Assembly: GCA_965116195.1 (NCBI GenBank) | Contig: OZ220491.1 | Coordinates: 1,085,080-1,149,079, forward strand | Direction of reading: 5' to 3' | DNA from: Acidimicrobiales bacterium | GTDB taxonomy: Bacteria > Actinomycetota > Acidimicrobiia > Acidimicrobiales > Aldehydirespiratoraceae | DNA: 64,000 nt | Shown: positions 7,303 to 29,015 of the stretch, piece by piece | Numbering within the stretch: position 1 is the first letter of the stretch | How the letters are laid out: each line of letters opens with the position of its first letter | Made by a program: the position numbers and the translations under genes | Notes under the pieces: generated by a model | Told to the model about the DNA's origin: nothing | Seen by the model: only the letters and a program-made list of their open reading frames with translations | Database searches by the model: none

Positions 7303-7382
7303 GGCAGAGGTGCCCTCCGGGTGTGGTTGAAAATGACCACCGAACCATACCGGCAGATCGGCTGAAACATATCGGCGGACCT

Positions 7383-10262: not shown

Positions 10263-12876
10263 GACTGATCCCACCGGGGCCTACGCGGGCTTCGGGGGCA
10301 CCGTCGGCAAGGTCTTTTCCGCCTCCGAGCCTGATTGGCCGGTACCGCCCACGGCTCCTGATGGTGCTCCCAATGTGATCGTGATGATGGCTGATGACCT
10401 CGGCTATTCCGATCTGGGCTGCTATGGCTCCGAGATCAACACTCCCGAACTTGACCGGCTCGCCTCAGAAGGGTTGCGTTACACCGACTTTCATGTCAAT
10501 CCCATGTGCTCACCCACCCGGGCGTCTTTGCTGACCGGACTCAATCATCACATGGCTGGCATGGCAACTGTTCCTCACAGCGACCCCGGCTTTCCCGGCT
10601 ATGCCCACGAGTTGCGCGAGAACACGGTCACCATGGCCGAGGTGTTGCGTGATGCGGGCTGGGCCACTTTCATGGTGGGCAAGTGGCATCTCACCAAGGA
10701 TGCTCACCTCAGCGACGGTGCTCCCAAGTCGAGTTGGCCTCTGCAACGGGGCTTTGATCGCTATTACGGGATTTTGGATGCTTTCACCAACTTTCATCAG
10801 CCTCATCGTCTTTACGAGGACAACCACCACCTCAACGTTGATCAATACCCCGATGACTATTACTTCACTGATGATCTGACCGATCAGGCTTTGCGAATGG
10901 TTGATGAACTGCGGTCATCGCATCCGACCCGACCGTTTTTCATGTACTTCTCTCATGGGGCTGTGCATGCTCCGCTGCAGGCACCTGCAACGGATATTGA
11001 ACTGTTCCGGGGTCGCTATGACGCGGGCTGGGATGTGTTGAGAGCCGAGCGCTTCCAGCGTCAGAGGCAGTTGGGTGTGGTGCCTCCTCACGCTGTGCTG
11101 CCGCCGCGCAACGCCGAGGAGTTGCACGAGGCCGGTGCCTGGGATGATCTTGATGCTCGCTCCAGAGAGTTGTTTGCCCGCTATATGGAGGTGTACGCGG
11201 GCATGGTTCACAATGTTGATCGCAACTTCGGTCGCCTGCGCCGACATCTTGAAGCCGTCGGCGAGTGGGACAACACGATTGTGCTGTTCACCAGTGACAA
11301 CGGCGGCTCCCGTGAGGGTCAGTACACCGGTACCTCCGCGTATTTCCGAACTCTGCTCACGCAGGTGCGCTCGACGGGTCTGGAAGATGTGGCTGTTGAC
11401 CACGAGCGTATTGACATGCTGGGTGGCCCGCGTGCGTTGGCTCATTATCCGATGGGTTGGGCGATGGTGTCATGCACACCGTTCCGGCTCTACAAGATCA
11501 ACACTCACCGGGGTGGTCACAGTGTGCCCTTCATCCTGCACTGGCCGGCACGCTTCGAAGCCGGAACTGGAGTTGGGGTTGGTGCCGCAGCCGGAGTTGG
11601 GGGTGGTGCCGCAGCCGCAACGGGAGTTGAAGATGGTGCCAGAACCCAAGCCGGAGTTGTTGCCGTAGTTGGTGTGCAAGCCGGACCTGGAACTGGAGTT
11701 GAAGTTGGTGCCGGAGCAGTAGTTGAAGCCGACGTTGGAGTTGGAGCGGCAGCCGGAACTGGAGTTGAAGGTGGTGCCAGAACCCAAGCTGGAGTTGTAG
11801 TGGGTGGCCAAGCCGAAACTGGAACAGGAACCGTAGTCGGAGAGGTAGTCGGCGACGGTTCGTTGGCTGGGGGGATACGTACCCAGTACCAACATGTGAC
11901 CGACGTGTTGCCGACCGTGTGTGAGTTGGTTGGCGTGGCAGTGCCGCGTACCCGTCACGGTGTGGCTGTGCCAGAGCCGGCCGGGGCCAGTTTTGCGATG
12001 ACCCTGCACGATGCCACCGCGCCCTCCACCCATCCCGAGCAGTACTACGAGATGATCGGGCATCGTGGCTATTACCGTGATGGTTGGTCTATCGTCACCT
12101 GTCACCGGCCACGCCGGGCTTTCAGCGACGATCACTGGGAGTTGCACAACCTCGCCGATGACCCGACCGAGTCGGTGGACCTGGCTTCTGAATATCCGGA
12201 CAAACTCCAGGAACTTGAGCAGGCCTGGGACGCGGCGGCCTGGGCCAATCAGGTTTACCCGTTGGATGAGGGCAATTCGCTCAAGATGATCCTGCGGCCT
12301 CCGTGGTATCAACAGTGGGCAGCCGAGACGAAGTTGCGGCCTGGAACGCCCACCCTGGAGCGTTGGCGATCCCAGCAGCTGATCTTTCAGAAGAATTTTG
12401 ATGTTGATGTGGCATTGCGTTGGCGGCCCGGTGACTGTGGCATGCTCGTGGCCCATGGCGATCAGGGAGGCGGTTATGCGCTGTATGTCGAGGATGACTG
12501 CCTGATGTTTGTCCACAACGCATACGGTGATTTGACCACTGTGAATTGTGGGTTGGTGCCTACGGGTGCCTCGAAGGTGTGTCTGGCGATGGAGAACCCC
12601 GGCAATCTTGTCTGGAACGCACGGCTGAGTGTGGACGGTGAGCCGGTGGGGGAGGCCCGGGGTTTGGTGTCACTGATGGCGATGGCACCTTTTGAGGGCA
12701 TTGATGTGGGGATTGACCGCCGTTCTCCTGTCAGCTGGGATGTCTATGAACGTCACGGCCCCTTTGCCTTTACAGGTGATCTGCACTCGGTTACCTACCG
12801 CCCGGGCGAACTCGCCCCTGATGCCGGTTCGTTGTGGCTCGACTACATTCGTTCCACCGGCACTCGTTACGAGTAG
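10261..12876 (+). CDS. Arylsulfatase (formylglycine-dependent, CSPTR motif) carrying a ~105-aa repetitive insertion
   Basis: 871 aa. VIVMMADDLGYSDLGCYGSE...NPMCSPTRASLLTG. The Gly/Val/Ala-rich insertion is at 11561-11875. Confidence 0.88.
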   Translation: MTDPTGAYAGFGGTVGKVFSASEPDWPVPPTAPDGAPNVIVMMADDLGYSDLGCYGSEINTPELDRLASEGLRYTDFHVNPMCSPTRASLLTGLNHHMAGMATVPHSDPGFPGYAHELRENTVTMAEVLRDAGWATFMVGKWHLTKDAHLSDGAPKSSWPLQRGFDRYYGILDAFTNFHQPHRLYEDNHHLNVDQYPDDYYFTDDLTDQALRMVDELRSSHPTRPFFMYFSHGAVHAPLQAPATDIELFRGRYDAGWDVLRAERFQRQRQLGVVPPHAVLPPRNAEELHEAGAWDDLDARSRELFARYMEVYAGMVHNVDRNFGRLRRHLEAVGEWDNTIVLFTSDNGGSREGQYTGTSAYFRTLLTQVRSTGLEDVAVDHERIDMLGGPRALAHYPMGWAMVSCTPFRLYKINTHRGGHSVPFILHWPARFEAGTGVGVGAAAGVGGGAAAATGVEDGARTQAGVVAVVGVQAGPGTGVEVGAGAVVEADVGVGAAAGTGVEGGARTQAGVVVGGQAETGTGTVVGEVVGDGSLAGGIRTQYQHVTDVLPTVCELVGVAVPRTRHGVAVPEPAGASFAMTLHDATAPSTHPEQYYEMIGHRGYYRDGWSIVTCHRPRRAFSDDHWELHNLADDPTESVDLASEYPDKLQELEQAWDAAAWANQVYPLDEGNSLKMILRPPWYQQWAAETKLRPGTPTLERWRSQQLIFQKNFDVDVALRWRPGDCGMLVAHGDQGGGYALYVEDDCLMFVHNAYGDLTTVNCGLVPTGASKVCLAMENPGNLVWNARLSVDGEPVGEARGLVSLMAMAPFEGIDVGIDRRSPVSWDVYERHGPFAFTGDLHSVTYRPGELAPDAGSLWLDYIRSTGTRYE

Positions 12877-12879
12877 TTG

Positions 12880-13245
12880 CATGTGCGCGGCGTGCAAGTT
12901 GTTGGTCGGTCGGTTGCTCTGCTCGGTGGGGGCCGGACAACCCAGTGACACTTGTGCGCGGCGTGCAAGTTTGTTGGTCGGTCGGTTGCTCTGCTCGGTG
13001 GAAGCGGTGCAACCTGGTGACACTTGTGCGCGGCGTGCAAGTTTGCCCGTCAGTCGGTTGCTGTGCTCGGTGGAAGTGGTGCAACCTGGTGACACTTGTG
13101 CGCGGCGTGCAAGTTTGTTGGTCGGTCGGTTGCTCTGCTCGGTGGGGGCCGGACAACCCAGTGACACTTGTGCGCGGCGTGCAAGTTTGCCCGTCAGTCG
13201 GTTGCTGTGCTCGGTGGAAGTGGCGCAGTTGTCTGCGGCCGAGTC
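12880..13245. repeat. 72-bp tandem repeat x 5 (two alternating variants)
   Basis: CTTGTGCGCGGCGTGCAAGTTT occurs at 12951, 13023, 13095 and 13167, plus a leading copy. This accounts for all the overlapping ORFs between 12670 and 13289. Confidence 0.92.
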
Positions 13246-14635: not shown

Positions 14636-14832
14636 TTCAACATTGGCACCCACATCGTCTCTGTAGTGGTATGTCCTGATGGTTCTTGGTGTCCGGGATC
14701 ATTTGGCCTCGATGATGATGATGCCGTAGCGCTTTCAACATTGGCACCCACATCGTCTCTGTAGTGGTATGTCCTGGTCGTTCTTGGTGTCTGGGATCAT
14801 TTGGCCTCGATGATGATGCCGTAGCGTTGTTG
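14636..14832. repeat. 98-bp tandem repeat x 2 including the last ~12 codons plus stop of the HTH gene
   Basis: TTCAACATTGGCACCCACATCGTCTCTGTAGTGGTATGTCCTG occurs at 14636 and 14734. ATCATTTGGCCTCGATGATGATG appears in both copies. Confidence 0.9.
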
Positions 14833-16685: not shown

Positions 16686-17198
16686 ATGCGTGGCTTGAGC
16701 GTCTTGAGACGTAGATTACGATGCAATGGGAACATTGTGGGACAAGGTGATATATGTCCCAACACGGACGCTAAAGGCGGTGAGGCTATCGAGTTGAGAA
16801 CTCGTGATGCTGACGAGCTGGCGTGTAAGTTGGCTTACGAATGTGCGTGGCGACTGTGCGACGACGCACTGAAAACCCTTGAGTCTCAGCGAACCCGAGC
16901 CGTCGCCTTATTGTCGCTAACAATAGTGGCGGCTGGTATTGTTGCATCTTCACTCTTAAGGGCCAATATAATTGATGATGTTGGCGCTATTGGCGTTATG
17001 GGGATGATGGCCTTCGGCCTCAGTACACTGGTCATAATGGTGTGTGCGGCAATAGTAGCATGGCCGCTAGACACAGAGACTGCCTTACGCCCCTCGCAAA
17101 TAATAGCTAACTATGTCAATCCATATAAAGGTGTCGAAGTAAGGCATGGATTTATAGATGTCTTGCACGCGACATGGAGACTGCCTACGACAAGATGA
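16686..17198 (+). CDS. Small multi-pass membrane protein, probably frameshifted (reading continues in another frame to 17302)
   Basis: 170-aa ORF with hydrophobic helices (AVALLSLTIVAAGIVASSLL, GVMGMMAFGLSTLVIMVCAAIVAW). Frame +2 from ~17162 reads LARDMETAYDKMKEKLNTRYACYRSAVAFVPVANVGVAMLVFDVLT-stop. The sequence is A/T-richer and lies directly upstream of hsdM. Confidence 0.45.
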   Translation: MRGLSVLRRRLRCNGNIVGQGDICPNTDAKGGEAIELRTRDADELACKLAYECAWRLCDDALKTLESQRTRAVALLSLTIVAAGIVASSLLRANIIDDVGAIGVMGMMAFGLSTLVIMVCAAIVAWPLDTETALRPSQIIANYVNPYKGVEVRHGFIDVLHATWRLPTTR

Positions 17199-17632
17199 AA
17201 GAGAAACTCAACACACGGTACGCTTGCTACAGGTCGGCCGTCGCATTTGTCCCCGTTGCCAATGTCGGAGTTGCTATGCTGGTGTTTGATGTCCTCACCT
17301 AGAGACTCTCCAGAACGTCCGCCCGATCCTGAAGGCCCGCCGCCATCGAACGAACAGGTGACACGGGATGGATCGGGTGACGATCGGCCTTTGATGCGTC
17401 AGTAGTCTTGTAGGCAAGCCCACTTGCCCGAATGTTGGTCTGTCCGGGTCCAATAGTTACCGTATCTACATAGGTTGCTATGTGGTGAGCCTATATGCTG
17501 TCTACATCTAGTGGCAGGAGTTGTCCAACGGTGCTGCCTTGGCGTGAATGCGTGACGTGAACGCGTAAGTCGGCGAAGGTGCTCTGGTTGAGGAACATCG
17601 GCGAGCTCCACCGCTTGCGGTATGCTGATCCG

Positions 17633-19777
17633 ATGAACGTTAGTACGCATGGGCGCATGGCTGATTTCATTTGGGGGATTTGTAACTTGTTGCGTGGGCC
17701 TTACAAGCGGAATGAGTATCGCAAGGTCATATTGCCACTTACGGTGTTGCGACGTTTTGACTGTGTCCTGACGGCTACCAAGCCAGATGTGCTTGATGTT
17801 GATGCGGATGCCCAATCTCGAGGACTGGTGCAGACGGTTCGTCATCAACTGCTGCTGGGTGCATCTGGGCATCCGTTTTATAACAGTTCGCGGTTGGACT
17901 TTCAGCGTTTACTGGATGATCCGGACAACCTTGCGGCGAACCTTGTCGCTTATATTGATGCATTTTCGGAGAACATCCGTGAGATAATGCGTTGTTTCGG
18001 CTTTGAGGCCCAGATTGAGCGTATGGACGAAAAGTCGTTACTATATGAAGTCATCAGAGAGTTCGCCAAGATAGACTTGTCGCCTGAGCGTGTGGACAAT
18101 ATACAGATGGGATACATCTTTGAGGAACTGATCCGTATTGGTGCCGAGCAGGCCAATGAGGAAGCTGGGGAGCATTTTACACCGCGCGAGGTGATCCGGT
18201 TGATGGTCAGTCTGCTGCTGTCGCCTGAGCCGGACTTGGGCGAGGGGTGGGTGGTCAAGACGATCTATGATCCCGCCTGCGGAACCGGCGGGATGTTGTC
18301 GGTCGCCGAGGAGTACCTGCGTGAGCACAACCGTGACTCAAGGCCGTTGCTTTATGGCCAAGACTTCAACGACGAGGCGTGGGCCGTGTGCAAGTCTGAC
18401 ATGTTGATCAAGGGTAATGATGCCGACCAGATCGTTCGCGGCGACACCTTCACCCATGACGGTTACGGCTATCGCTCCAACGGTCAGCGCTGGACGTTTG
18501 ACTACATGCTTGCCAATCCTCCCTTTGGGGTAACTTGGAAGCAACAGGAGCGCGACATCAAGAGGGAGCATGATACTCTTGTCTGGGATGGACGCTTCGG
18601 TGCCGGCACGCCGCGCATCAACGACGGGGCGCTGCTGTTCTTGCAGCACATGCTGTCCAAGATGGCTCCCGTAGATTCGGATTCTATCGGGGGGGGGGGG
18701 GGGGGGGATGCCGATTGCCGTGGCAGCCGTATTGCTATCGTGTTCAACGGATCGCCACTGTTCACCGGCGACGCGGGCAGTGGTGAGAGCAACATACGGC
18801 GCTGGATTATCGAGAACGACTGGCTCGAAGCCATGGTTGCGCTGCCTGACCAACTCTTCTACAACACCGGCATCTCAACCTATGTATGGGTTCTCACCAA
18901 TCGCAAAGAACCCCATCGTGCAGGCAAGATGCAACTCATTGACGGCCGCCAGTTCTACACCAAAATGCGCAAGAGTCTGGGCAACAAGCGCAATGAACTT
19001 TCACAAGATCAGATTGACGACCTCACCCGTATACACGGCAACTTCACAGATGGTGAGACTCGAGATGTAACTGACGAGGATCCTGTTACTCACCAGTCAC
19101 GCACTAGGGCGCGGGTGGTCAGCAAGATTTTCGCCAACGAGGATTTCGGCTACCGCAAAGTTACCATTGAGCGCCCGTTACGGTTGAATTTCGCAGCGAC
19201 TCCTGAGCGCATCGCTCGACTTGACAAACTGAAGGCATTCCAGAACCTTGCCAAGAGCAAGAAACGGCCGGGATCTCGCCATGATGCCGAGGTCGCCAAA
19301 GGTCGCATACGCCAACGGCAACTTCGCAACCTGCTGGAACGGATTGCGAATGCAACTGGTGGTGAGGTAATCCGGGATCGTGAGGCGTTCCTGGATGTGC
19401 ACAACGAGCAAGCAGCGGCTCAGGGAATCCGTTTGTCACCCACTGAACGCAAGGTTGTGCTTGCCGCACTGGGTGAGCGGGACTCTGGAGCCGCGATCTG
19501 CTGTGACCGTCGAGGCAATCCTGAACCCGATCCGGAACTACGTGACACCGAGAGAGTGCCACTGCATGAGAAGATTGAAGACTACATGACTCGCGAGGTG
19601 CTGCCCCACATTCCGGATGCATGGGTGGATGACTCAAAGACCAAGGCAGGCTACGAGATCCCCTTCAATCGACACTTCTACGTATACGAACCTCCCCGCT
19701 CACTTGATGACATAGATCAAGACCTACAAGCCCTCGAACGCGAGATCATCGGCCTGCTCGCCGATGTCACCTCATGA
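17633..19777 (+). CDS. hsdM: Type I restriction-modification system, methyltransferase subunit
   Basis: In-frame part of ORF 17579..19777. N-terminal FIWGICNLLRGPYKRNEYRKVILPLTVLRRFD. SAM motif DPACGTGGML. Catalytic NPPF (MLANPPFGV). Confidence 0.93.
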   Translation: MNVSTHGRMADFIWGICNLLRGPYKRNEYRKVILPLTVLRRFDCVLTATKPDVLDVDADAQSRGLVQTVRHQLLLGASGHPFYNSSRLDFQRLLDDPDNLAANLVAYIDAFSENIREIMRCFGFEAQIERMDEKSLLYEVIREFAKIDLSPERVDNIQMGYIFEELIRIGAEQANEEAGEHFTPREVIRLMVSLLLSPEPDLGEGWVVKTIYDPACGTGGMLSVAEEYLREHNRDSRPLLYGQDFNDEAWAVCKSDMLIKGNDADQIVRGDTFTHDGYGYRSNGQRWTFDYMLANPPFGVTWKQQERDIKREHDTLVWDGRFGAGTPRINDGALLFLQHMLSKMAPVDSDSIGGGGGGDADCRGSRIAIVFNGSPLFTGDAGSGESNIRRWIIENDWLEAMVALPDQLFYNTGISTYVWVLTNRKEPHRAGKMQLIDGRQFYTKMRKSLGNKRNELSQDQIDDLTRIHGNFTDGETRDVTDEDPVTHQSRTRARVVSKIFANEDFGYRKVTIERPLRLNFAATPERIARLDKLKAFQNLAKSKKRPGSRHDAEVAKGRIRQRQLRNLLERIANATGGEVIRDREAFLDVHNEQAAAQGIRLSPTERKVVLAALGERDSGAAICCDRRGNPEPDPELRDTERVPLHEKIEDYMTREVLPHIPDAWVDDSKTKAGYEIPFNRHFYVYEPPRSLDDIDQDLQALEREIIGLLADVTS
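18687..18705. repeat. Homopolymer G19 inside the hsdM reading frame (encodes GGGGGG)
   Basis: Direct count: atc + 19 g + atgcc. The frame is intact at this length. Confidence 0.9.
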
Positions 19778-21162
19778 TGAACGCATACCCTAGCTATCGC
19801 AACAGCGGTGTGGATGTGCTCGGCGAGGTTCCTGAGCATTGGAAACTTCGGTTGCTTAAGCATGTAGCGTCGTACCGTACTAGCAGTGTAGACAAGAAGG
19901 CATCTGACGGTGAGATACGCGTTAGGTTATGTAACTATACTGACGTCCACGATAGGGATCGTATTCGGATAGACGAAGGCGACTTTATGATAGCAACTGC
20001 ATCGCCGTTGGAACTGTCTCGCTTTAAGTTGGCTGTGGGTGACGTTCTTATTACCAAGGATGCCGAAATCGGAGTACCGGCACTTATCGAGGAGGTTTCC
20101 GATGATTTTGTTTGTGGATATCATCTCGGAATTGTTAGACCTAATGATCCAACATATTCAGGATTTGTGTTTTGGATGATACAATCAGCCGGCACCCGTT
20201 GGTACTTTAGAGGTTGCGGTGTCGGAGTTACTTTGATGGGGTTGCCTACCTATGCAGTAGTCAACCTTCCTTGCGCCGTTCCGCCGGTGGAAGAGCAGCG
20301 GGCTATTGTTGAGTATCTTGATGGTGAAACCGAGAAGATTGATACCTTGGTGGCGAAGAAGCGACTGCTACTGGAACGGTTGGCTGAGTATCGCAAGGCT
20401 CTGATCACTGGTGCGGTGACTCGCGGTCTGCCACCCGAGGTTGCGCTGGCTGCTGGGTTTGATCCGTCACCGCCGCTCAAGCCTTCGGGTGTGGATTGGC
20501 TTGGAGACGTTCCCGCTCACTGGGACGTTCGGCAACTCGGGCGAATTGGTGTGTTTTTCAAGGGAGCAGGTGGCACCAAGGAGGATGAAATCGAAGCGGG
20601 CTTGCCATGTGTTCGATACGGAGATCTTTACACTTATCATCAGTGTTTTGTGAAGGATACACGTGCTGACATTAGAGCTGAAGTAGTCGTATCGTACCGT
20701 GAACTTCGTTATGCCGATGTCTTGTTTGCTGGTTCCGGCGAGACGATTGAAGACATAGGTAAGTCTGCTGTTAACCTTATTGATGGTCCTGCCTACTGTG
20801 GCGGTGACGTGATCGTGCTTCGTCCTTGTATCGAGGTGGATGCTACCTTTCTCGGATATGCGACCGACTGCCATATCGCTACCTACCAGAAAGCTTGTAT
20901 GGGTCGAGGTGTAACCGTGATGCACATCTACAGCAGTGAACTCAAGTACCTGATTATTCTGCTGCCGCCGGTGGAGGAGCAGCGGGCGATTGCTGCGTTT
21001 CTTGATGAACGTACTGGGCGGATTGATCGGTTGTGCTTGAAGGTTGAGGAAGCGATTGAACGGTTACATGAGTATCGGACAGCGCTGGTGACGGCGGCAG
21101 TCACCGGCAAGATTGATGTTCGGGATGTACCCGCAGTCAAGGCCAAGAGTGTCAACAAATGA
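19774..21162 (+). CDS. hsdS: Type I restriction-modification system, specificity subunit (two target-recognition domains)
   Basis: 462 aa. ATG overlaps the hsdM stop (ATGATGA). Two conserved helical spacers: PPVEEQRAIVEYLDGETEKIDTLVAKKRLLLERLAEYRKALITGAVTRG and PPVEEQRAIAAFLDERTGRIDRLCLKVEEAIERLHEYRTALVTAAVTGKIDV. Confidence 0.93.
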   Translation: MMNAYPSYRNSGVDVLGEVPEHWKLRLLKHVASYRTSSVDKKASDGEIRVRLCNYTDVHDRDRIRIDEGDFMIATASPLELSRFKLAVGDVLITKDAEIGVPALIEEVSDDFVCGYHLGIVRPNDPTYSGFVFWMIQSAGTRWYFRGCGVGVTLMGLPTYAVVNLPCAVPPVEEQRAIVEYLDGETEKIDTLVAKKRLLLERLAEYRKALITGAVTRGLPPEVALAAGFDPSPPLKPSGVDWLGDVPAHWDVRQLGRIGVFFKGAGGTKEDEIEAGLPCVRYGDLYTYHQCFVKDTRADIRAEVVVSYRELRYADVLFAGSGETIEDIGKSAVNLIDGPAYCGGDVIVLRPCIEVDATFLGYATDCHIATYQKACMGRGVTVMHIYSSELKYLIILLPPVEEQRAIAAFLDERTGRIDRLCLKVEEAIERLHEYRTALVTAAVTGKIDVRDVPAVKAKSVNK

Positions 21163-24100
21163 CGAAGCAGACGACGGAGTATGCGTTCGAGTCTGTGGCA
21201 GAGTCGATGCTTGTAGAGGGAGGTTGGCGTGTAGGTGACCGGGCGGAGTGGGATGTGGAACGGGCGTTGTTCCCTGAGCGTGTGGTTGCCTTCATTGAAG
21301 CTACGCAGACTGAGTTGTGGGCGCAGTTGACTCAGTTGCACGGGGACACCCTTGCCGAGTCGTTGATGGAGCAACTGGTTCGCGAACTGGACACCAAAGG
21401 AACTCTGGAGGTGATACGTCGTGGGTTCAAGTTCTGGGGCAAGACGCTGAAGTTGGCGTACTTTCGTCCGGCGCACGGCTTGAACCCCGAGGCGCAGGCA
21501 CGGTTCGAACGCAACGAACTGACTGTCACTCGTCAGATACGGTGTCATCCCGGCAAAGGTGACACGGTGGATATGGTGCTTGCGCTCAACGGACTACCGA
21601 TAGCGACCTGCGAACTCAAGAACCCCATGACCGGCCAGAGCTGGCGCAACGCAATCCAGCAGTATCGCAATAATCGGGATCCCGGCGTGGCTCTGTTTCG
21701 TTTTACCAGGCGTACTCTTGTGCATTTTGCGGCGGATTGCGATGAGGTGCATATGACGACGCGCCTTGCCAAGAACAAGACCCGCTTCCTGCCATTCAAC
21801 CGAGGTAGCGCGCCAGGCGAAGTACGCTGCGGAAAGGGCAACCCGGCTCACTCGTCGGGATATCGCAGTGGCTATTTCTGGCGGGAGGTTCTTCAGCGTG
21901 AGAGTTTCTTGGACATTGTGGGTTCATACATCTTTGTGGAGTCTCGCACCGAGAAGGTCTACGGTGCCAAGGGCGCACGCACTGAGACTCACAAGACCCT
22001 GGTGTTTCCTCGCTATCACCAACTTGACGCAGTTACCAAGCTCATTCACGCTGCCCGTGGTGACGGGCCGGGGCGCAACTATCTGATCCAACATTCTGCA
22101 GGCAGTGGCAAAACCAACAGCATTTCATGGTTGTCGCACCGCTTGGCGAGCCTGCACACCACCGAAGACCAGAAGGTCTTTGACTGCGTGGTGGTGATCA
22201 CCGACAGGCGTGTGCTGGATCAGCAGTTGCAGCAGGCGATCTATCAGATTGAACACACCCACGGTGTCGTCAAGGCCATTGAACAAGACTCCCAGCAACT
22301 CGCCGAGGCCCTTGTTGACGGCACCAAGATCGTGATCACCACGCTTCAGAAGTTCCCGTTTGTGATGCGGCGACTGCTGATGATGGCTGGCGCAGAAGGC
22401 GACACTCCAACGGCTGCGCAAGCCCAACAGGCCGAACAGTGGCGCACTCAGATCGCTCAACGGAAATACGCAGTGATCGTGGACGAGGCACACTCAAGCC
22501 AAAGCGGCGAAAGCGCTCGCGAGATGAAAGCAGTACTTGGAGCACGCTCCCAAGCCGCTCAAGCCGAAGCCGAAAGCGGTGAAGCAGACTGGGAGGACAG
22601 CCTCAACGCAATGATGGAGTCACGGGGCGCGCAACCCAACTTGTCATTCTTCGCGTTCACGGCCACCCCCAAAGCCAAGACCATCGAATTGTTCGGCGCA
22701 GTGGGTAGGTCGGGCAAGCCGGAGCCGTTCCATGTTTACAGCATGCGTCAAGCCATTGAGGAAGGGTTCATTCTTGATGTGTTGAGCAACTACACCGACT
22801 ACAACACCTACTTCCGACTGTTGCAGCAGGCGGAGGAGGATGAGGATTTTCCCAAGCGTCGTACGTCTCGTGCTCTGGCGAGGTTTGTGAGCTTGCACCC
22901 GCACAACCTCGCCCAGAAGACAGAGGTGATCGTTGAGCACTTCCGCAACCACATCCGGCACCGCATCAACGGCAAAGCCAAAGCCATGTTGGTCACCTCG
23001 TCCCGATTGCATGCGGTACGTTACATGCAAGCCTTTCAGCAATACATCAAAGATCGTGGCTACACCGATGTGTACCCACTGGTCGCATTCAGCGGGACCG
23101 TCACCGATCCCGATACCGGCGAGGAGTTCACCGAGCCGTCAATGAACATTGATGTCGTCACAGACAAGCCGATCAGCGAAGCTGCGTTGCCGAGTCGGTT
23201 TGCTTCACCCGACTACCAGATACTGCTTGTGGCCGAGAAGTACCAGACCGGGTTTGACCAGCCACTGCTGCAAGCGATGTATGTGGACAAACGGCTTGAC
23301 GGGGTGCAGGCCGTGCAGACACTGTCACGACTCAACCGCACCGCTACGGGCAAGCAGGCCCCCTTCGTGTTGGACTTTGTCAACGATCCTGAGGACATTC
23401 GAGCTGCCTTCGAGCCTTACTACGACCAGACCCAACTGGAGGATCGCTCCGACCCCTATCAACTCAACAGGCTCCAGCACCAACTTGACATGGCGCAGGT
23501 CTATCACGATGTCGAAGTTCTGGCGTTTGCGCAGTTCTTTTTCCGTGCTCCCATCCAGCAGCGACCCGACGACCACGCCCAGCTCGAAGCTGCACTCCAG
23601 CCTGCGTGTGACCGCTTTGATGCGCTTGACGAAGAGCATCAGAGCGAGTTTCGTGACCGGCTCAGTGCGTTTGTGAACCTCTACACATTCCTGAGTCAGA
23701 TCATCCCCTACACCGACAGTGACTTTGAACGTCTGTACGCGTTCGGCAAGGCTCTGTTGCCACGTCTGCGTCCCGATCGTGATGCGGTTCGTCTGGCTGA
23801 TGACATCGAACTTGAGTACTACCGGCTTCAGAAGCGCTCGTCGGGCAGTATCAGTCCCGGAGATGATGACGAAGCCACAGTCAAACCACCCACAGAGGTC
23901 GGTACCGGTGACCCCGAAGAGCCCACCGCACCGCTGTCTGAGATCATTGAGCGTCTCAATGACCGGTTCGGCACCGACTTCACCGACTCAGACCGCTTGT
24001 TTCTCCAACAAATCCAACACGATGCCATCAACCAGGAGGACATCCGCCGCATCGCCTTGGCCAATCCGTTCGACAAGTTCAGCCTCAGTATCCGACCACA

Positions 24101-24260
24101 ACTCGAAGGACTCCTGATCAAGCGCATGGCCGAAAACGACTCTCTCGTGTCCCGGACTTTCAACGACCCCGAGTTTCAGGAAATCGTCTACAGCGGACTC
24201 CTGCAAGCGATCTTCGATTCCGTTACCGAAAAAGACGAACCAGCCAGCCTCAACGTTTGA
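21159..24260 (+). CDS. hsdR: Type I restriction-modification system, restriction/helicase subunit
   Basis: 1033 aa. ATGA overlap with hsdS. Walker A HSAGSGKTNS and DEAH box VIVDEAHSSQ. N-terminal nuclease-like region. Confidence 0.93.
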   Translation: MTKQTTEYAFESVAESMLVEGGWRVGDRAEWDVERALFPERVVAFIEATQTELWAQLTQLHGDTLAESLMEQLVRELDTKGTLEVIRRGFKFWGKTLKLAYFRPAHGLNPEAQARFERNELTVTRQIRCHPGKGDTVDMVLALNGLPIATCELKNPMTGQSWRNAIQQYRNNRDPGVALFRFTRRTLVHFAADCDEVHMTTRLAKNKTRFLPFNRGSAPGEVRCGKGNPAHSSGYRSGYFWREVLQRESFLDIVGSYIFVESRTEKVYGAKGARTETHKTLVFPRYHQLDAVTKLIHAARGDGPGRNYLIQHSAGSGKTNSISWLSHRLASLHTTEDQKVFDCVVVITDRRVLDQQLQQAIYQIEHTHGVVKAIEQDSQQLAEALVDGTKIVITTLQKFPFVMRRLLMMAGAEGDTPTAAQAQQAEQWRTQIAQRKYAVIVDEAHSSQSGESAREMKAVLGARSQAAQAEAESGEADWEDSLNAMMESRGAQPNLSFFAFTATPKAKTIELFGAVGRSGKPEPFHVYSMRQAIEEGFILDVLSNYTDYNTYFRLLQQAEEDEDFPKRRTSRALARFVSLHPHNLAQKTEVIVEHFRNHIRHRINGKAKAMLVTSSRLHAVRYMQAFQQYIKDRGYTDVYPLVAFSGTVTDPDTGEEFTEPSMNIDVVTDKPISEAALPSRFASPDYQILLVAEKYQTGFDQPLLQAMYVDKRLDGVQAVQTLSRLNRTATGKQAPFVLDFVNDPEDIRAAFEPYYDQTQLEDRSDPYQLNRLQHQLDMAQVYHDVEVLAFAQFFFRAPIQQRPDDHAQLEAALQPACDRFDALDEEHQSEFRDRLSAFVNLYTFLSQIIPYTDSDFERLYAFGKALLPRLRPDRDAVRLADDIELEYYRLQKRSSGSISPGDDDEATVKPPTEVGTGDPEEPTAPLSEIIERLNDRFGTDFTDSDRLFLQQIQHDAINQEDIRRIALANPFDKFSLSIRPQLEGLLIKRMAENDSLVSRTFNDPEFQEIVYSGLLQAIFDSVTEKDEPASLNV

Positions 24261-24456
24261 TCTGAGTTCGGCCAACAGGGTTCGTCACCCACCCCGCCGT
24301 CCGGCAGCGAGTTGTCCAGGTCTCACCTCGGGTTCACCTGGGTGTTTGCCAACATGTTCTCCACTGAGTCTGCGGGTACTGTCAGCGCACATTGGTCTTA
24401 TCCGTGACGATCTGCCTGTGACGATGACTTCTAGCCTTCCGTCCCACAAACAACTC

Positions 24457-24661
24457 CATCTCCCCGCGGGGGAGGGGGGCGTTGCGGCCTGGCCTCGTGG
24501 ACGGCGTGTCCCCTGGGTCATCTCCCTGCGGGGGAGGAGGGCATTGCCTGTTACAAATGCTCTCAAGCTCAGCATCTCCCCGCGGGGGAGGTGTCTCAGC
24601 ACCCTTCTCGCCGTTGATCATCCACCAGTCACCCTCGCATCTCCCCGGGTGGGTTACTACC
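24457..24661. repeat. Four copies of a ~29-bp hairpin-containing repeat separated by unrelated 25-37 nt segments (CRISPR-like or REP-like)
   Basis: CATCTCCC(C/T)GCGGGGGAGG(G/A)GGGC(G/A)TTGC occurs at 24457 and 24519. 3'-diverged copies occur at 24573 and 24638. The core CTCCCC-GCG-GGGGAG is an inverted repeat. Confidence 0.6.
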
Positions 24662-24689
24662 TACGACGACGGTGACTTGACCCTCCAGT

Positions 24690-24890
24690 GATCCTCCCAG
24701 GGAGCGGGTGCTAACCACATTGTGCCTCGAACCCCGGAAGCACAGCAATCCTGCTCCCAGGGGGCGAGTGCTAACCACATTGTGCCTCGAACCCCGGCAG
24801 CACAGCAATCCTGCTCCCAGGGGGCGAGTGCTAACCACATTGTGCCTCGAACCCCGGCAGCACAGCAATCCTGCTCCCAGGGGGCGGACT
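24690..24890. repeat. 60-bp tandem repeat x ~3.3
   Basis: GTGCTAACCACATTGTGCCTCGAACCCCGG occurs at 24708, 24768 and 24828. Confidence 0.92.
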
Positions 24891-25056
24891 TCTTGCTATC
24901 GGTCCTTACCGGGTTTCTGGTTGACCAAGACGGTAGGTGGAGGTCCCTCGGGGGAGAGGAAGGATGATCCTGGAAACTCAAGAAATATTTGATAATATCC
25001 TGAAATATGCTGTAAGCGGGTGGGTGATGTCATAGGGGGTTGATATAGTACAGGTC

Positions 25057-27030
25057 ATGTTGATGGAAGTCGCAGGCCGGGCTGAGGCCACTGTCAAAGA
25101 GATGCTCAACGTTGCTCATGCGGGAGGCACCTCAACTGTTGAGTTGCGTGACGTGTTGGCAGTGACCAAACGTATTGCCGCGGTGGTCGCGACCGTTCAA
25201 ACCCATCTTGCTTCGGCTGTCGCTGTGACTGAGCGTCATGGCGACGGCGGCACCGAGGTGCTTGCAGAGACCACGGGGTTGACGCGTCGTGAGGCGCGTG
25301 GGCAGGTCAAAACCGCCAAAACGATTGCCGGGTTGCCTTCGGTTCGTGACGCGGTAGCGCAGGGTCGGGTGTCTTTGGCCAACGCCAAACGGTTGGCTGA
25401 CGCGGTTGAGCGCACCAGCGCCGGTGCGGTTGAAGCTGACGGCGGGTTGTTGAAGATGGCGGAGTCGTTGCGGGCTGAGCAGTTCACCAAAGAAGCCCGT
25501 CGCTGGATTGCTGAGCAACAAGACGATGGTGGTGAGGCTGATCATCAACGCATGCGAGCCAAACGCTGTGTGCGCGTCTGGGACAACGACAACGGCATGG
25601 TCGAGTTGCACGGCACGTTTGATCCCCTCACCGGCAAACGCATAGGCAACCGGCTACGAGCCGAAGCAAACCGCCTGTACCAAAACGACAAAAAACACGC
25701 CGCACAGCAAGACCAACACGAACGCAGCAACCAGCAACAGGACGAGACCAACGGGCAGCGCCACAAAGAAGCTGACAACAACAGACGTGACAGCACACCC
25801 AACAGCAGTAGATCCGGTAGCCACCAACGCGGCCGAGCACCCGGCAACAGTAAAGCAAGCGACAGGCGGCGGAGTTTCGATCAGTGCATGGCTGACGCAT
25901 TGGACAACCTCACCTCAAACACCGTCACAGGCCCAAGTGCCAGCACCGACTCGGGAAGTGCTGCTCGCACAGGAACGACCGGCGGCACTGCTGGACCAAC
26001 CAACCCGAGCAAAACGCCCCGCAACGGCACGAGAAGCGTTGACGCGGGAACGGTTATCGACAACGGAACTGTCAGTGAAATAGGAGCGGGCAGTGCTGCA
26101 GGCTCCGGCACCCGGGCGGCTATCGGCAATTCTCAGAGGGCTCGCGATGGCACCGGTAGCGTTGATGTTGACACTGGAGCGGTCTTCGGTAACGGTGTTG
26201 TCAATGAAATGGGCGCGGGCAGTGCTGCTGGCTCTGAAGCGGTCATCGGCAACGGTCAGAGAGCTTGCCCCACTACGAGGAGCGCTGATACTGGAGCAGT
26301 TATCGGTAACGGTGATGTTGAGGGTACCGGTAACGGCTCCGGCCAGAGTTCTTGTGCTGAGTGTGGTGCTGAAACAGGAGCCCACACGAGTGCGGACAGT
26401 CAACCGGCCTTGGGTCGGGCGTTTGCGGATATTTGTGTGATTGTTCAAGTGGATGCTGTGACCGGTGAACTTGTGGCGCAACTACCTGATGGTGAACGGT
26501 TGCCAGCCAGTGTCTTGGAAAAGCTCACCTGCAATGCCCGGATCTCTGTGATTTTGTCCACTGCCAGAGGCCAACCCATCTGGCGTGCTATCGCTGCTCG
26601 TGCTGCTTCTGATACACAACGACGACTTCTGCTGGCGCGCTGGGGTGGGTGCTTCCACTGCGCAGCACACCCCGCGATGTGTCAGATCCATCACATCGTG
26701 CCCGTGGCACAAGGCGGCGAAACCAAAATCGACAACCTGATCCCGGTGTGCTGGGACTGCCACGACCTGATCCACCACAACCACTGGCAAATCCACAAAC
26801 ACCCCAAAGGAAACCACACCCTGCACCCACCTGATCCGTATCATCACGGACCCGCCCACGCACCCGAACAACCCCTGCTCTTCACACAAACCGCCCCCGA
26901 CCCCAACAACGACAACAGCCGCTTGCCTGCATCACAAACCCCTGCACTCGAGTTCAATGCACCTGCCATACATGAAACACACAAGGGTACTCCAACTGCC
27001 AAGCCTCCAGAATCTTCAGCACAGAAATGA
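25057..27030 (+). CDS. DUF222/HNH endonuclease family protein (mycobacterial REP13E12-type) with internal Gly/Ala/Ser-rich repeats
   Basis: 657 aa. The N-terminal part is DUF222-like. The C-terminal HNH is CFHCAAHPAMCQIHHIVPVAQGGETKIDNLIPVCWDCHDLIHH. Internal repeats are of the form (A/V)IGNG...GAGSAAGS. Confidence 0.85.
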   Translation: MLMEVAGRAEATVKEMLNVAHAGGTSTVELRDVLAVTKRIAAVVATVQTHLASAVAVTERHGDGGTEVLAETTGLTRREARGQVKTAKTIAGLPSVRDAVAQGRVSLANAKRLADAVERTSAGAVEADGGLLKMAESLRAEQFTKEARRWIAEQQDDGGEADHQRMRAKRCVRVWDNDNGMVELHGTFDPLTGKRIGNRLRAEANRLYQNDKKHAAQQDQHERSNQQQDETNGQRHKEADNNRRDSTPNSSRSGSHQRGRAPGNSKASDRRRSFDQCMADALDNLTSNTVTGPSASTDSGSAARTGTTGGTAGPTNPSKTPRNGTRSVDAGTVIDNGTVSEIGAGSAAGSGTRAAIGNSQRARDGTGSVDVDTGAVFGNGVVNEMGAGSAAGSEAVIGNGQRACPTTRSADTGAVIGNGDVEGTGNGSGQSSCAECGAETGAHTSADSQPALGRAFADICVIVQVDAVTGELVAQLPDGERLPASVLEKLTCNARISVILSTARGQPIWRAIAARAASDTQRRLLLARWGGCFHCAAHPAMCQIHHIVPVAQGGETKIDNLIPVCWDCHDLIHHNHWQIHKHPKGNHTLHPPDPYHHGPAHAPEQPLLFTQTAPDPNNDNSRLPASQTPALEFNAPAIHETHKGTPTAKPPESSAQK

Positions 27031-27057: not shown

Positions 27058-27801
27058 TCAACAGTTCATTGATTCCACTGTCCCATCGGCTTTGATCCAG
27101 TTAGAAACGCTGCGGCACTCAGTACCACCTTCCGACAGTTGATCACTGCCTTTCGAGAGTTGATCAAGGCTACCCCAGCCCGAGAGATGTGCACAGTCGA
27201 CAGAGCTAGCGCCAAAGAAGAGAAATGGCATCCGATAGTAGTCCGCTATGCTTACGCCTAAGGAAGCGGCCGCTTCTGCAGTATAGGTGCCCTCTGCGAC
27301 AGTATGTTCGATACCGCCGCTGAACGCACTTATACTTATGCGGTAACCATCTTCGGCGCTGTCCTCGTAACAGTATCCCCATAGATTTGCATTGCGTGGT
27401 GCGCTTGTCTGCACCACGTTCGTGACTTCTACCTTGTTTTCCGTGTAAGCGGCAACAGTCAACGCGGCCAGCAGCGCTGTTATCAGTACGGCTGACACAG
27501 CAAGAATACGGCTGGTGAGCTTGGATACCGGGCGGTATGTAACTGGTGCCGGTTGGTCAATCTGTTCAGACTGGGGTTCTTCTGTGATTGTGGTAACTTC
27601 AGGTGAGTCGGTCTGGGGTTCCCCTGCTGACGCGGTGGCACCCGGTGCGTCGGGATCCGCCTCACTTGTGCGCGGCATGATGTCCGCTGGTGTTGCGCGC
27701 TGGCCTCCAGAGTCAAACCGGGCCTCCTGCTCAGACATGGTTGCCTCAGGCGAGGCGGGTTGGTCTTCCGAGTTGGGCTGGGTTTCTTCCGTAGCCATCA
27801 T
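27058..27801 (-). CDS. Single-pass membrane protein of unknown function, paralog A
   Basis: Part of ORF 27058..27948. Start MMATEETQPNSEDQ with GGGAG SD. Acidic/Pro-rich N-terminus. TM helix ILAVSAVLITALLAALTVAAY. Cys-containing C-terminal domain (GYCYEDSAEDGYRISISAFSGGIEHTVAEGTY...). Confidence 0.65.
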   Translation of the reverse strand: MMATEETQPNSEDQPASPEATMSEQEARFDSGGQRATPADIMPRTSEADPDAPGATASAGEPQTDSPEVTTITEEPQSEQIDQPAPVTYRPVSKLTSRILAVSAVLITALLAALTVAAYTENKVEVTNVVQTSAPRNANLWGYCYEDSAEDGYRISISAFSGGIEHTVAEGTYTAEAAASLGVSIADYYRMPFLFFGASSVDCAHLSGWGSLDQLSKGSDQLSEGGTECRSVSNWIKADGTVESMNC

Positions 27802-28103
27802 GTCTCCCTGAGTGTCGGGTTGGTCTTCCGCAACAATACGAGTCGCTGCGAAATCGTGGTTTAGGTTGGTTGCAGTTCTTGTGTGAGGGGTCAAGGCCCT
27901 GCCAGGTGTCGATGTCGAAAGTCGAGCCACTTCCATTGGTGGTTGCATCAGAGGTGATCGTAGGTGGTCTGATTGGGTTTACTAAAAGTCTCGCCTCGTT
28001 TTGACCGCTGGTGGGCTGCAATCCTGGTGAGCCGCTCCGATAGTCTCTTGCCCTCAACTTGAATTTCTGTGCGCGTATCAAACATATGAATCGCTCAAGT
28101 TCA

Positions 28104-29015
28104 CTATCTCCAGCCGGAAAGGTGTGCACAGTCGCTAGTGGTGGAACCAGATCTGTCGCCAAACTCAAGGTACGGCCTCTGGTAATATTCAGCCATTGCC
28201 ACGCCTATCCCGGCAGCCCCTTCTGGGGTAAAGCTACCCTCTGCGACAGTGTGTTGAATGCCTCCGCTATACGCAACTATGCTGACGCGGTAACCATCGC
28301 CGAAACTGCTCTCGTAGCAGTGTCCCGTTACTGCTGCATTACGTGGTGCGCCTGTCTGCACCACGTTTGTGACCTCAACTTCTCTTACCGGGTTCGTGAC
28401 CTCAACTTCGGTTACGGGGTTTGTGACCTCAACCTCGGTCACTGGGTTCGCGACCTTGACCTCATTCACGGGGTTTGCGATCTCTACCTCCGTGACAGGG
28501 TTCGTGACCTCGACCTCGGTTACGGGGTTCGTGACCTCGACCTCGGTTACCGGGTTTGCGACGGTCACGGGGAGCGATGCCACTCTTTCTATCTCGGACA
28601 ATGCTTGTGGTATCACTGTGTAAGCAGCAACTGTCAGCGCTGCAAGCAGCGCGGTTATCAGCACGGCTGACACGGCGAGAATGCGGCTGGTGAGCTTAGA
28701 TATCGGGCGGTATGTAACTGGTGCGGGCTGGTCGACTTGCTCAGATGGGGGAAGATCTTCTGTGGATGCGGAAGCTTCAGGTGAGTCGAGCTGGGGTTCC
28801 CCTGATGACATGGAGGTTTCAGGCGAGATCGACTGGGGTTCCCCTGATGACGCGGAGGCACCTGGCGAGCCGGAATCTGCTCGTCCTGCAGGCATTATGT
28901 CCTCTGGTGTGGCGGGCCGGTCTCCGGTGTCAAACCGGGCCTCCTGCGCAGGCATGGTGGCCTCAGGCGAGTCGGGATGGTCTTCCGAGTTGGGCTGGGT
29001 TTCTTCCGTGGCCAT
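28104..29015 (-). CDS. Single-pass membrane protein of unknown function, paralog B (with 7 x NPVTEVEVT repeats)
   Basis: Part of ORF 28104..29213. Start MATEETQPNSEDHP with AGGAG SD. The TM helix and C-terminal domain are nearly the same as in paralog A. Confidence 0.65.
   Translation of the reverse strand: MATEETQPNSEDHPDSPEATMPAQEARFDTGDRPATPEDIMPAGRADSGSPGASASSGEPQSISPETSMSSGEPQLDSPEASASTEDLPPSEQVDQPAPVTYRPISKLTSRILAVSAVLITALLAALTVAAYTVIPQALSEIERVASLPVTVANPVTEVEVTNPVTEVEVTNPVTEVEIANPVNEVKVANPVTEVEVTNPVTEVEVTNPVREVEVTNVVQTGAPRNAAVTGHCYESSFGDGYRVSIVAYSGGIQHTVAEGSFTPEGAAGIGVAMAEYYQRPYLEFGDRSGSTTSDCAHLSGWR
28367..28562. repeat. 27-bp in-frame tandem repeat x 7 within paralog B (NPVTEVEVT)
   Basis: GGGTT(C/T)GTGACCTC(A/G)ACCTCGGTTAC-type units read directly from the sequence. 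Confidence 0.9.

What the first reader, a model, noticed from the sequence alone, without database searches (positions are those of the whole stretch)
18687..18705. 19-nt poly-G tract inside the hsdM coding sequence: candidate phase-variable type I R-M switch
The tract is in frame at 19 G, reading ...DSIGGGGGGDADCRGSRIAIVFNG... It sits in what looks like a surface loop, between NPPF and the conserved SRIAIVFNGSPLF block. A +/-1 slippage would truncate HsdM and abolish both methylation and restriction, because HsdM is required for both. Simple-repeat phase variation of type I systems is established in, for example, Haemophilus and Mycoplasma. Reversible homopolymer frameshifts are known in mycobacteria (glpK 7C), but a 19-mer in a high-GC actinobacterium is unusual.
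Basis: partly seen in the sequence, partly recalled or inferred. Interest (0 to 1): 0.7.

Follow-up and report, generated by a model that had tools for sequence, protein, structure and literature searches.

The report
Slippery G19 run inside hsdM
A run of 19 G bases sits in frame inside the methylase gene of an intact type I restriction-modification system of an uncultured actinobacterium (class Acidimicrobiia), so gaining or losing one G should switch the whole defence system off or on; this kind of switch is already known, and switching itself could not be shown here.

Summary
The tract is 19 G at 18689-18707, two bases right of the reported coordinates. Apart from one other tract (G15), no homopolymer in the 64 kb exceeds 6 bases. 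It lies in frame in hsdM of a complete hsdM-hsdS-hsdR operon and encodes Gly6 in a loop whose length varies among homologues. Lengths 13/16/19/22/25 give full-length HsdM. All other lengths tested (13-25) give truncated products of about 382-385 or 477-480 aa.

None of 120 protein homologues has this Gly run, and none of 84 homologous loci has an intragenic G/C run of 9 or more. GGG makes up only 16% of Gly codons, so the tract is a DNA-level feature.

A G15 tract lies 20 nt upstream of a surface-protein gene. The closest relative genome has a G13 tract in the same arrangement, which suggests this lineage uses G/C tracts as contingency loci.

The best reading is a simple-sequence-repeat ON/OFF switch of a type I R-M system. 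That makes it a new member of a known kind: 2% of REBASE hsdM genes carry such repeats.

Length polymorphism could not be tested, because there are no reads and no close relatives. The exact length in the assembly is uncertain.

The parts
18689..18707 (+). G19 homopolymer: six GGG Gly codons plus the first G of a GAT codon. This is the candidate slippage switch.
17633..19777 (+). hsdM, the type I methyltransferase subunit, 714 aa from ATG 17633. The ORF is open from GTG 17579. The database protein P0001 starts at ATG 17657. Homologue N-termini (MNxxTH) favour 17633.
   Evidence: Pfam HsdM_N and N6_Mtase. PADLOC MTase_I covers residues 3-713, E=4.9e-270. Alignment A1.
18665..18724 (+). Variable loop APVDSDSIGGGGGGDADCRG, between the helix ...FLQHMLSKM and the strand SRIAIVFNG. 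It is 20 aa here and 7-10 aa in most homologues. It aligns to a gap in the solved HsdM 7vru_A.
18515..18526 (+). NPPF catalytic motif (motif IV) of HsdM, upstream of the tract.
18784..18786 (+). TGA stop reached when the tract is 17, 20 or 23 G. The OFF product is about 383-385 aa.
19068..19070 (+). Stop reached when the tract is 15, 18 or 21 G, in the frame of ORF 18708-19070. The OFF product is about 477-479 aa.
19774..21162 (+). hsdS specificity subunit, 462 aa and full length. Its start overlaps the hsdM stop (ATGA).
   Evidence: Pfam Methylase_S. PADLOC Specificity_I covers residues 1-453 of a 448-position profile, E=1.3e-93.
21159..24260 (+). hsdR restriction subunit, 1033 aa. Its start overlaps the hsdS stop.
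   Evidence: Pfam HSDR_N, SWI2_SNF2/ResIII and T1R_D3-like. PADLOC REase_I.

Best explanation
The G19 tract is a real, hypermutable homopolymer inside hsdM of an otherwise intact type I restriction-modification operon. The host is an Acidimicrobiia (Actinomycetota) genome.

Strand slippage during replication changes the tract length. Lengths of 3n+1 (..16, 19, 22..) keep the frame and yield full-length HsdM with a Gly5-7 insertion in a permissive loop (ON). Any other length frameshifts after residue ~352, downstream of NPPF. That removes the rest of the catalytic domain and the C-terminal region (OFF).

HsdM is needed for both methylation (M2S1) and restriction (R2M2S1), and hsdS and hsdR are translationally coupled downstream. 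OFF cells should therefore lose modification and restriction together, without self-restriction. The expected result is a clonal population that is a heritable, reversible mixture of R-M+ and R-M- cells (phase variation). Any methylation-dependent gene-expression effects (a phasevarion) would be a further possibility.

Shown here: tract, frame, truncation outcomes, intact operon, permissive loop, and uniqueness among homologues. Inferred: slippage in vivo, loss of function in OFF, reversibility, and any adaptive value.
For: - The tract exists and is in frame. ON and OFF outcomes were simulated for 13-25 G.
- The operon is complete, with overlapping stops and starts.
- The loop tolerates insertions. 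Most homologues have 7-10 aa, and five (P0003, P0004, P0022, P0027, P0040) carry unrelated Gly/Ser-rich insertions of 28-41 aa. The loop aligns to a gap in PDB 7vru_A.
- The tract is a nucleotide-level feature. GGG is only 16% of Gly codons, so six in a row has p of about 1.5e-5, and this is the only Gly run of 4 or more in 30 ORFs. None of 120 best homologues has it. None of 84 homologous hsdM loci has an intragenic G/C run of 9 or more. The closest homologue (L004, 82% over its best-matching segment) has a 16-aa loop without a run.
- The only other long homopolymer in the window (G15) sits 20 nt upstream of the start of a secreted fn3/PKD/Calx-beta/SLH surface protein. The nearest relative genome (L004) has a G13 tract 30 nt upstream of a lipoprotein-like gene. 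That is 3 tracts of 13 or more in about 87 kb of this lineage. About 1.3 Mb of other bacteria hold one, and that one is at a contig end.
- Literature: 2% of REBASE hsdM genes carry repeats of G9 or longer (or equivalent) that are predicted to switch ON/OFF (PMC7383803). In the actinobacterium B. breve, coding G10-G12 tracts are already length-heterogeneous within single-colony cultures (PMC9187656).
Against: - There is no direct evidence of length variation. No reads were available. No relative is closer than 76% protein identity (82% over the best segment of a disrupted copy in L004). No metagenome contig matches the flanks.
- The assembled length of a 19-nt homopolymer is unreliable in any technology, so the 'ON' state in the window may be a consensus or a polishing outcome.
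- Known phase-variable hsdM genes mostly carry the repeat in the 5' region. This tract is mid-gene.
- The R-M region has lower GC (54-59% against 60-63% in the flanks), and the orthologue in the nearest relative is disrupted by an insertion. The locus may simply be a decaying horizontally acquired island.
- The AF2 model was too poor to show that the loop is surface-exposed.
Confidence: 0.6

Rival explanations
1. The tract is incidental and unstable, not a maintained switch. A short G run in a permissive loop of a horizontally acquired R-M system expanded by slippage. It is effectively a mutational liability on the way to pseudogenisation. Cells do switch OFF, but selection does not maintain reversibility.
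For: - The tract is unique to this gene among 120 homologues and 84 loci.
- The region has the lower GC of an island.
- The orthologue in the nearest relative is already disrupted by a ~1 kb insertion.
- Other homologues accumulate low-complexity insertions in the same loop.
Against: - The assembled allele is in frame and the whole operon is intact.
- The only other long tracts in this lineage lie upstream of surface or secreted protein genes, the classical contingency-locus pattern.
- A 19-nt tract would be expected to collapse or be interrupted quickly unless it is tolerated or selected.
Confidence: 0.2
2. The tract acts at the RNA level rather than as a heritable DNA switch. RNA polymerase may slip on the 19-nt homopolymer, giving a mixture of frames from any genotype. 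Alternatively, a G-quadruplex on the sense strand or in the mRNA may throttle hsdM and the downstream hsdS and hsdR.
For: - The tract is longer than an RNA:DNA hybrid (own knowledge of transcriptional slippage).
- It is on the sense strand, so the mRNA carries G19.
- G19 is exactly four G4 runs with 1-nt loops. ViennaRNA with G-quadruplex energies predicts a 4-layer G4 at -54 kcal/mol for the run alone, and -73.8 against -25.0 kcal/mol for the 81-nt context.
Against: - This is purely computational.
- Slippage is best documented for A/T runs.
- The other two tracts (G15, G13) are on the template strand of their genes, so their mRNAs carry poly-C. That argues against a common G4-in-mRNA role.
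- This explanation does not exclude DNA slippage, which should occur anyway.
Confidence: 0.1
3. The tract is a sequencing or assembly artefact. It may not exist at all, or it may be much shorter or of a different length (for example a two-colour-chemistry poly-G or homopolymer decompression error), so the in-frame reading is accidental.
For: - Database G-tract lengths can differ from reality (PMC9187656).
- One fetched locus (L062) shows a G24 exactly at a contig end, which is typical of an Illumina artefact.
- The related loci whose record names were returned are metagenome contigs whose names (ctg...c, ctg...l) suggest a long-read metagenome assembler (an inference), and homopolymer length is the weakest point of such assemblies.
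- A G11 tract splits a methyltransferase gene in L082.
Against: - The tract is internal, with unique flanks that continue the conserved HsdM alignment on both sides and in frame.
- Both long tracts in the window fall on classical contingency-type positions, an R-M gene and the upstream region of a surface-protein gene. Random artefacts would hit such positions with probability below about 1e-3 (own estimate).
- An independent genome of the same lineage shows the same architecture.
- Long-read chemistries mis-size homopolymers but do not create them.
Confidence: 0.07

Closest known systems
SSR-containing, predicted phase-variable hsdM genes. Examples are Haemophilus influenzae hsdM with CGAGA[3-10] and Mannheimia haemolytica hsdM with ACAGC[10-40]. 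The REBASE survey of Atack et al. 2019 is PMC7383803.
   Same: A repeat whose unit is not a multiple of 3 lies inside the hsdM ORF of a complete type I system. Length change frameshifts the gene. The predicted result is ON/OFF of methylation and restriction. The tract far exceeds the survey's G9 threshold.
   Different: This is a mononucleotide G19 rather than a pentanucleotide repeat. It lies mid-gene, in a loop of the catalytic domain, whereas most hsdM repeats are in the 5' region. The host is an uncultured Acidimicrobiia rather than a host-adapted proteobacterial pathogen. No inter-strain length variation is documented here.
Neisseria gonorrhoeae NgoAV and Salmonella or Mannheimia hsdS genes with poly-G tracts (PMC7383803)
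   Same: A poly-G tract within a type I R-M gene changes the product by slippage.
   Different: Those tracts lie between the two TRDs of hsdS and switch specificity between full-length and truncated HsdS. Here the tract is in hsdM and should give all-or-none activity. No repeat was found in hsdS or hsdR of this operon.
Bifidobacterium breve UCC2003 intragenic G10-G12 tracts in sortase-pilus genes (PMC9187656)
   Same: The host is an actinobacterium. The G tract is in coding sequence, and its length decides whether the reading frame continues. Population heterogeneity in tract length was measured.
   Different: Those tracts control pilus genes, not R-M, and are much shorter. Variation was demonstrated experimentally there and not here.
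Mycobacterium tuberculosis glpK 7C tract and other homopolymer phase variants (bioRxiv 10.1101/717272; PMC11898584)
   Same: Reversible frameshifts occur in a coding homopolymer of a high-GC actinobacterium.
   Different: The tract there is 7 nt, against 19 nt here. It controls metabolic or drug-tolerance genes, not a defence system.
Type III mod phasevarions (Haemophilus, Neisseria, Helicobacter; PMC1976455)
   Same: SSR-driven ON/OFF of a DNA methyltransferase could change gene expression genome-wide.
   Different: That is a different R-M type. A regulon effect here is pure speculation.

Membership tests
Type I restriction-modification system (HsdM/HsdS/HsdR) | HsdM with an HsdM_N domain and a gamma-class N6-adenine methyltransferase domain containing NPPF | tested here: met
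   Pfam PF12161 (E=1.2e-22) and PF02384 (E=1.7e-53). NPPF lies at 18515-18526. PADLOC MTase_I matches full length. PDB type I M subunits are hit.
Type I restriction-modification system (HsdM/HsdS/HsdR) | A full-length HsdS specificity subunit (two target-recognition domains) and an HsdR with a nuclease N-terminus and an SF2 motor, encoded together with hsdM | tested here: met
   HsdS matches PADLOC Specificity_I over residues 1-453 of a 448-position profile, with Pfam Methylase_S in 2 stretches. HsdR has HSDR_N, SWI2_SNF2/ResIII and T1R_D3-like. Overlapping stop/start codons lie at 19774-19777 and 21159-21162.
SSR-mediated phase-variable (contingency) gene | A repeat tract within the ORF or promoter that reaches a length known to mutate at high frequency (G9 or more in the criteria of PMC7383803) | tested here: met
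   G19 uninterrupted. The criteria are quoted.
SSR-mediated phase-variable (contingency) gene | The repeat unit is not a multiple of 3, so gain or loss of a unit shifts the frame and truncates the product, and a further change restores it | tested here: met
   Simulation of 13-25 G gives full length only at 13, 16, 19, 22 and 25, and otherwise 382-385 or 477-480 aa.
SSR-mediated phase-variable (contingency) gene | Tract-length polymorphism between strains or within a population | not testable with these tools
   The exact protein is a single-member cluster. The next homologue is 76% identical (82% over the best segment of a disrupted copy). The genome is not in genome contigs. No metagenome contig matches the flanks. 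No reads are available.
SSR-mediated phase-variable (contingency) gene | Phenotypic ON/OFF switching (methylation and restriction) that correlates with tract length | not testable with these tools
   This needs methylome or restriction assays.
Phasevarion (methyltransferase-controlled phase-variable regulon) | Differential methylation in ON and OFF cells changes expression of multiple genes | not testable with these tools
   No expression or methylation data are available. This was only considered as a possibility.

The most novel reading that the evidence does not exclude
This uncultured Acidimicrobiia lineage is closest to Ca. Aldehydirespirator, a group with sponge-associated members. It may run a set of long poly-G/C contingency loci, a 'phasome'. 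In that reading the tracts stochastically switch a type I R-M system (G19 in hsdM) and tune or switch surface or secreted proteins (G15 here, G13 in the relative, both 20-30 nt upstream of start codons). That would be the first contingency-locus system described in an environmental or symbiotic, non-pathogenic, uncultured actinobacterial class. The hsdM switch could possibly act as a phasevarion. The tract lengths (15 = 3-layer, 19 = 4-layer G-quadruplex with 1-nt loops) might add a structural layer.
Probability: 0.2. Interest if true: 0.6.

Novelty: new member of a known kind. Interest (0 to 1): 0.4.

Why it matters
If the tract really varies, the population would continuously contain cells with and without an active type I R-M barrier. 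That is a bet-hedge between phage defence and openness to foreign DNA, and possibly an epigenetic switch.

Such switches have been documented almost entirely in host-adapted pathogens. Finding one in an uncultured Acidimicrobiia, together with similar tracts upstream of surface-protein genes, would extend the contingency-locus strategy to environmental or symbiotic actinobacteria.

It would also give a concrete, read-level testable target in existing long-read metagenomes. In practical terms, the site is a place where annotation pipelines will flip between 'intact' and 'pseudogene' depending on homopolymer calling.

Tried and rejected
1. Scans for length variants. I scanned JGI metagenome contigs with both flanks of the G19 tract joined by a variable gap, and did the same for the G15 tract. 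Both gave 0 hits, so there is no population evidence either way.
2. Source record. Exact-protein look-ups of the window's own HsdM and proteasome ATPase found no record. Cluster look-up showed a single-member cluster with no names.
3. Genome collection. The search for related loci in genome contigs did not contain the source genome. It returned 80 homologous loci, which I used only as a background.
4. Structure. The AlphaFold2 model from a 36-sequence alignment had mean pLDDT 58.8, with residues 164-386 below 50. I did not use it and ran no fold search. Loop exposure is inferred from indel patterns and the 7vru_A alignment instead.
5. Orthologues of the surface protein downstream of the G15 tract. 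Only partial domain-level hits appeared. The loci fetched (L081-L083) belong to unrelated organisms, so conservation of that tract could not be tested.
6. A shared repeat mechanism in the loop. The loop insertions of other homologues (P0003, P0040) are imperfect AGC/GGC-type in-frame low complexity, not homopolymers.
7. Illumina poly-G artefact. I rejected this because the tract is internal and in frame with conserved flanks, unlike the contig-end G24 in L062.
8. Promoter and terminator scans around the operon were uninformative, with counts at shuffle level.
9. Literature. I found nothing on homopolymer phase variation in Acidimicrobiia or sponge symbionts.
Full report
**Observation**

The window contains an uninterrupted run of 19 G at 18689-18707. 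This is two bases to the right of the reported coordinates. Homopolymer lengths of all four bases in the 64 kb stop at 6, with two exceptions: this G19 and a G15 at 1889-1903. Neither can be a chance product of a 59.8% GC sequence.

The run is in frame.

**The gene and its system**

The ORF 17579-19777 carries the Pfam domains HsdM_N and N6_Mtase. It matches a PADLOC type I methyltransferase profile end to end, E=4.9e-270. It also hits solved type I M subunits, best 7vru_A.

The likely start is ATG 17633 (MNVSTH...), judged from homologue N-termini.

hsdS (19774-21162) matches full-length PADLOC Specificity_I profiles. hsdR (21159-24260) has HSDR_N, SWI2_SNF2/ResIII and T1R_D3-like domains. 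They follow with overlapping stop and start codons. The system is therefore complete and operonic.

TRF finds no other simple repeat inside the operon. The R-M region has a lower GC (54-59%) than its flanks (60-63%). A DUF222-HNH gene follows it. This is compatible with a horizontally acquired island.

**Host**

The window encodes the pupylation genes: the proteasome ATPase and Dop, both equivalog-level NCBIfam hits.

The ATPase's best named relatives are Acidimicrobiaceae or Acidimicrobiales MAGs. The best hit (88%) lies on the 3,054,164-bp record OZ242020.1, 'Candidatus Aldehydirespirator sp.'. Aldehydirespiratoraceae is an Acidimicrobiia family with sponge-associated members (PMC11706023).

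The class is Acidimicrobiia, and the organism is probably uncultured.

The source genome (a 3,445,870-bp contig) is not retrievable from the collections.

**Where the tract sits in the protein**

In alignments of the best homologues, the tract lies in a loop between the conserved helix ...LLFLQHMLSKM and the strand SRIAIVFNG.

Of the best 120 homologues, 92 had a loop that could be extracted. Of these, 86 have loops of 7-10 residues. The window's loop has 20. Five others (P0003, P0004, P0022, P0027, P0040) have unrelated Gly/Ser-rich insertions of 28-41 residues. Those insertions are encoded by imperfect AGC/GGC-type sequence, not homopolymers.

Against the solved HsdM 7vru_A, the loop aligns to a gap. 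The position therefore tolerates insertions. This makes a functional Gly6 'ON' protein plausible.

An AlphaFold2 model was too poor in this domain to add anything: pLDDT was below 50 for residues 164-386.

**The tract is a DNA-level feature**

- GGG is only 16% of Gly codons in 30 ORFs of the window. Six in a row, given six glycines, has p of about 1.5e-5.
- It is the only Gly run of 4 or more in those ORFs.
- No homologue has a comparable Gly run.
- None of the 84 homologous hsdM loci fetched has an intragenic G/C run of 9 or more.
- The closest homologue (L004, 82% over its best-matching segment) has a 16-aa loop, ASVDVASGEANRESSG, with no run. That gene is interrupted by a ~1 kb insertion.

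**Consequences of slippage**

I replaced the tract with 13-25 G.

| Tract length | Product |
|---|---|
| 13, 16, 19, 22, 25 | full length, 712-716 aa |
| 14, 17, 20, 23 | stop at 18784-18786, 382-385 aa |
| 15, 18, 21, 24 | reads into the frame of ORF 18708-19070, 477-480 aa |

Both truncated products keep motifs I and IV. They lose the remaining catalytic strands and the C-terminal half. Loss of function is an inference.

From established knowledge of type I enzymes, HsdM is required for both the M2S1 methylase and the R2M2S1 endonuclease. An OFF allele should therefore be R-M-null without self-restriction. Premature termination should further depress the translationally coupled hsdS and hsdR.

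**Supporting context**

The G15 tract is a C15 on the minus strand. It lies 20 nt upstream of the GTG start of a secreted surface protein. That protein has a signal peptide, fn3, Calx-beta, PKD/Big_9 and SLH domains, and poly-Thr linkers.

In the 23-kb locus from the nearest relative genome (L004), a C13 lies 30 nt upstream of the ATG of a lipoprotein-like gene. Both tracts are preceded by CGATACAT.

This lineage therefore shows three G/C tracts of 13 or more in about 87 kb. All three are at classical contingency-type positions. About 1.3 Mb of homologous loci from other bacteria hold only one such run, a G24 exactly at a contig end, which looks like an artefact. By a Poisson estimate of my own, P is about 5e-5.

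This argues that the tracts are biological and that the lineage uses them.

**Literature**

Atack et al. (PMC7383803) searched 20,849 REBASE hsdM genes. They found that 2% carry repeats of G9 or longer (or equivalent) that are not multiples of 3. These lie mostly in the 5' region and are predicted to give ON/OFF switching. Examples are H. influenzae CGAGA[n] and M. haemolytica ACAGC[n].

In the actinobacterium B. breve, coding G10-G12 tracts are already heterogeneous within cultures grown from a single colony (for example 37% G11 against 60% G12). The authors warn that database G-tract lengths may be wrong (PMC9187656).

A G19 tract should be at least as unstable. That is an inference.

I found no report of such tracts in Acidimicrobiia or sponge symbionts.

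**Rivals**

1. *Incidental runaway expansion in a decaying island (confidence 0.2).* The tract is unique to this gene, the region has island-like GC, and the relative's copy is disrupted. Against this, the allele is in frame, the operon is intact, and the other tracts follow the contingency-locus pattern.
2. *RNA-level effects (confidence 0.1).* The run exceeds an RNA:DNA hybrid in length and lies on the sense strand. ViennaRNA predicts a 4-layer G-quadruplex at -54 kcal/mol. However, the other tracts put poly-C in their mRNAs.
3. *Artefact or mis-sized tract (confidence 0.07 for 'not real').* The exact length may well be off by one or more bases. That would change the called state but not the nature of the element.

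**What could not be done**

The protein is a singleton cluster. No metagenome contig matches either tract's flanks. No reads are available.

**Verdict**

It is a new member of a known kind: an SSR-bearing, putatively phase-variable hsdM. Three things are unusual about it:
- the tract is very long (19 G);
- it lies mid-gene, in a loop;
- the host is an uncultured Acidimicrobiia.

Interest is 0.4. Confidence in the slippage ON/OFF mechanism is 0.6.

Noticed in passing
window 1889-1903 (minus-strand gene from ~1868 down to the window start): This is the second long homopolymer: G15, which is C15 on the minus strand. It lies 20 nt upstream of the GTG start of a secreted surface protein with a signal peptide, fn3, Calx-beta, PKD/Big_9 and SLH domains, and long poly-Thr linkers. 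It is a candidate promoter or 5'-UTR contingency tract.
   Followed up: partly
L004 20739-20751 (OZ242020.1, Ca. Aldehydirespirator sp.): The nearest relative genome has a G13 (C13 on the minus strand) 30 nt upstream of the ATG of a lipoprotein-like gene. The architecture matches the window's G15, and both tracts are preceded by CGATACAT.
   Followed up: partly
L004 9977-13154: The closest hsdM homologue (82% over its best-matching segment) is interrupted by an insertion of about 1 kb, with a 315-aa ORF on the opposite strand. The C-terminal part of HsdM resumes at 12558-13154.
   Followed up: no
L082 14571-14581 (ena:ERZ24894574:ctg6896l, a cyanobacterial contig with PsaA): A G11 tract splits an N6_N4 DNA methyltransferase(+HNH) gene into two ORFs. 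Removing one G restores a 433-aa ORF. This is either another candidate phase-variable methyltransferase in the OFF state or a homopolymer sequencing error. C11 (L082 7284-7294) and G12 (L083 7172-7183) tracts lie near fn3-protein genes in the same genome.
   Followed up: partly
window 32447-32990; 12882-13220; 24694-24886; 29152-29332; 33997-34197; 38358-38691; 57026-57262; 14636-14818; 6623-6726: The window holds many long-period, high-identity tandem repeats that look mostly intergenic. Examples are 73 bp x7.5 at 97% identity, 72 bp x4.7, 60 bp x3.2 directly downstream of hsdR, 145 bp x2.3 and 66 bp x3.6. Their function is unknown.
   Followed up: no
HsdM loop of homologues P0003, P0004, P0022, P0027, P0040 (L084 and L085, gene 6001-8202 / 6001-8169): The same HsdM loop has independently acquired 28-41-aa Gly/Ser-rich insertions in other lineages. 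These are encoded by imperfect AGC/GGC repeats. The loop looks like a hotspot for in-frame low-complexity expansion.
   Followed up: partly
L062 8431-8454: A G24 run lies exactly at the end of a short Illumina MAG contig. This is the typical two-colour-chemistry poly-G artefact and is a useful contrast to the internal tracts in the window.
   Followed up: no
window 25057-27030 and 16686-17198, 24346-24981, 27058-29213: A DUF222-HNH endonuclease gene and several ORFs with no family match flank the R-M operon. They lie within the lower-GC stretch (about 16-28 kb), which suggests a mobile or defence island.
   Followed up: partly
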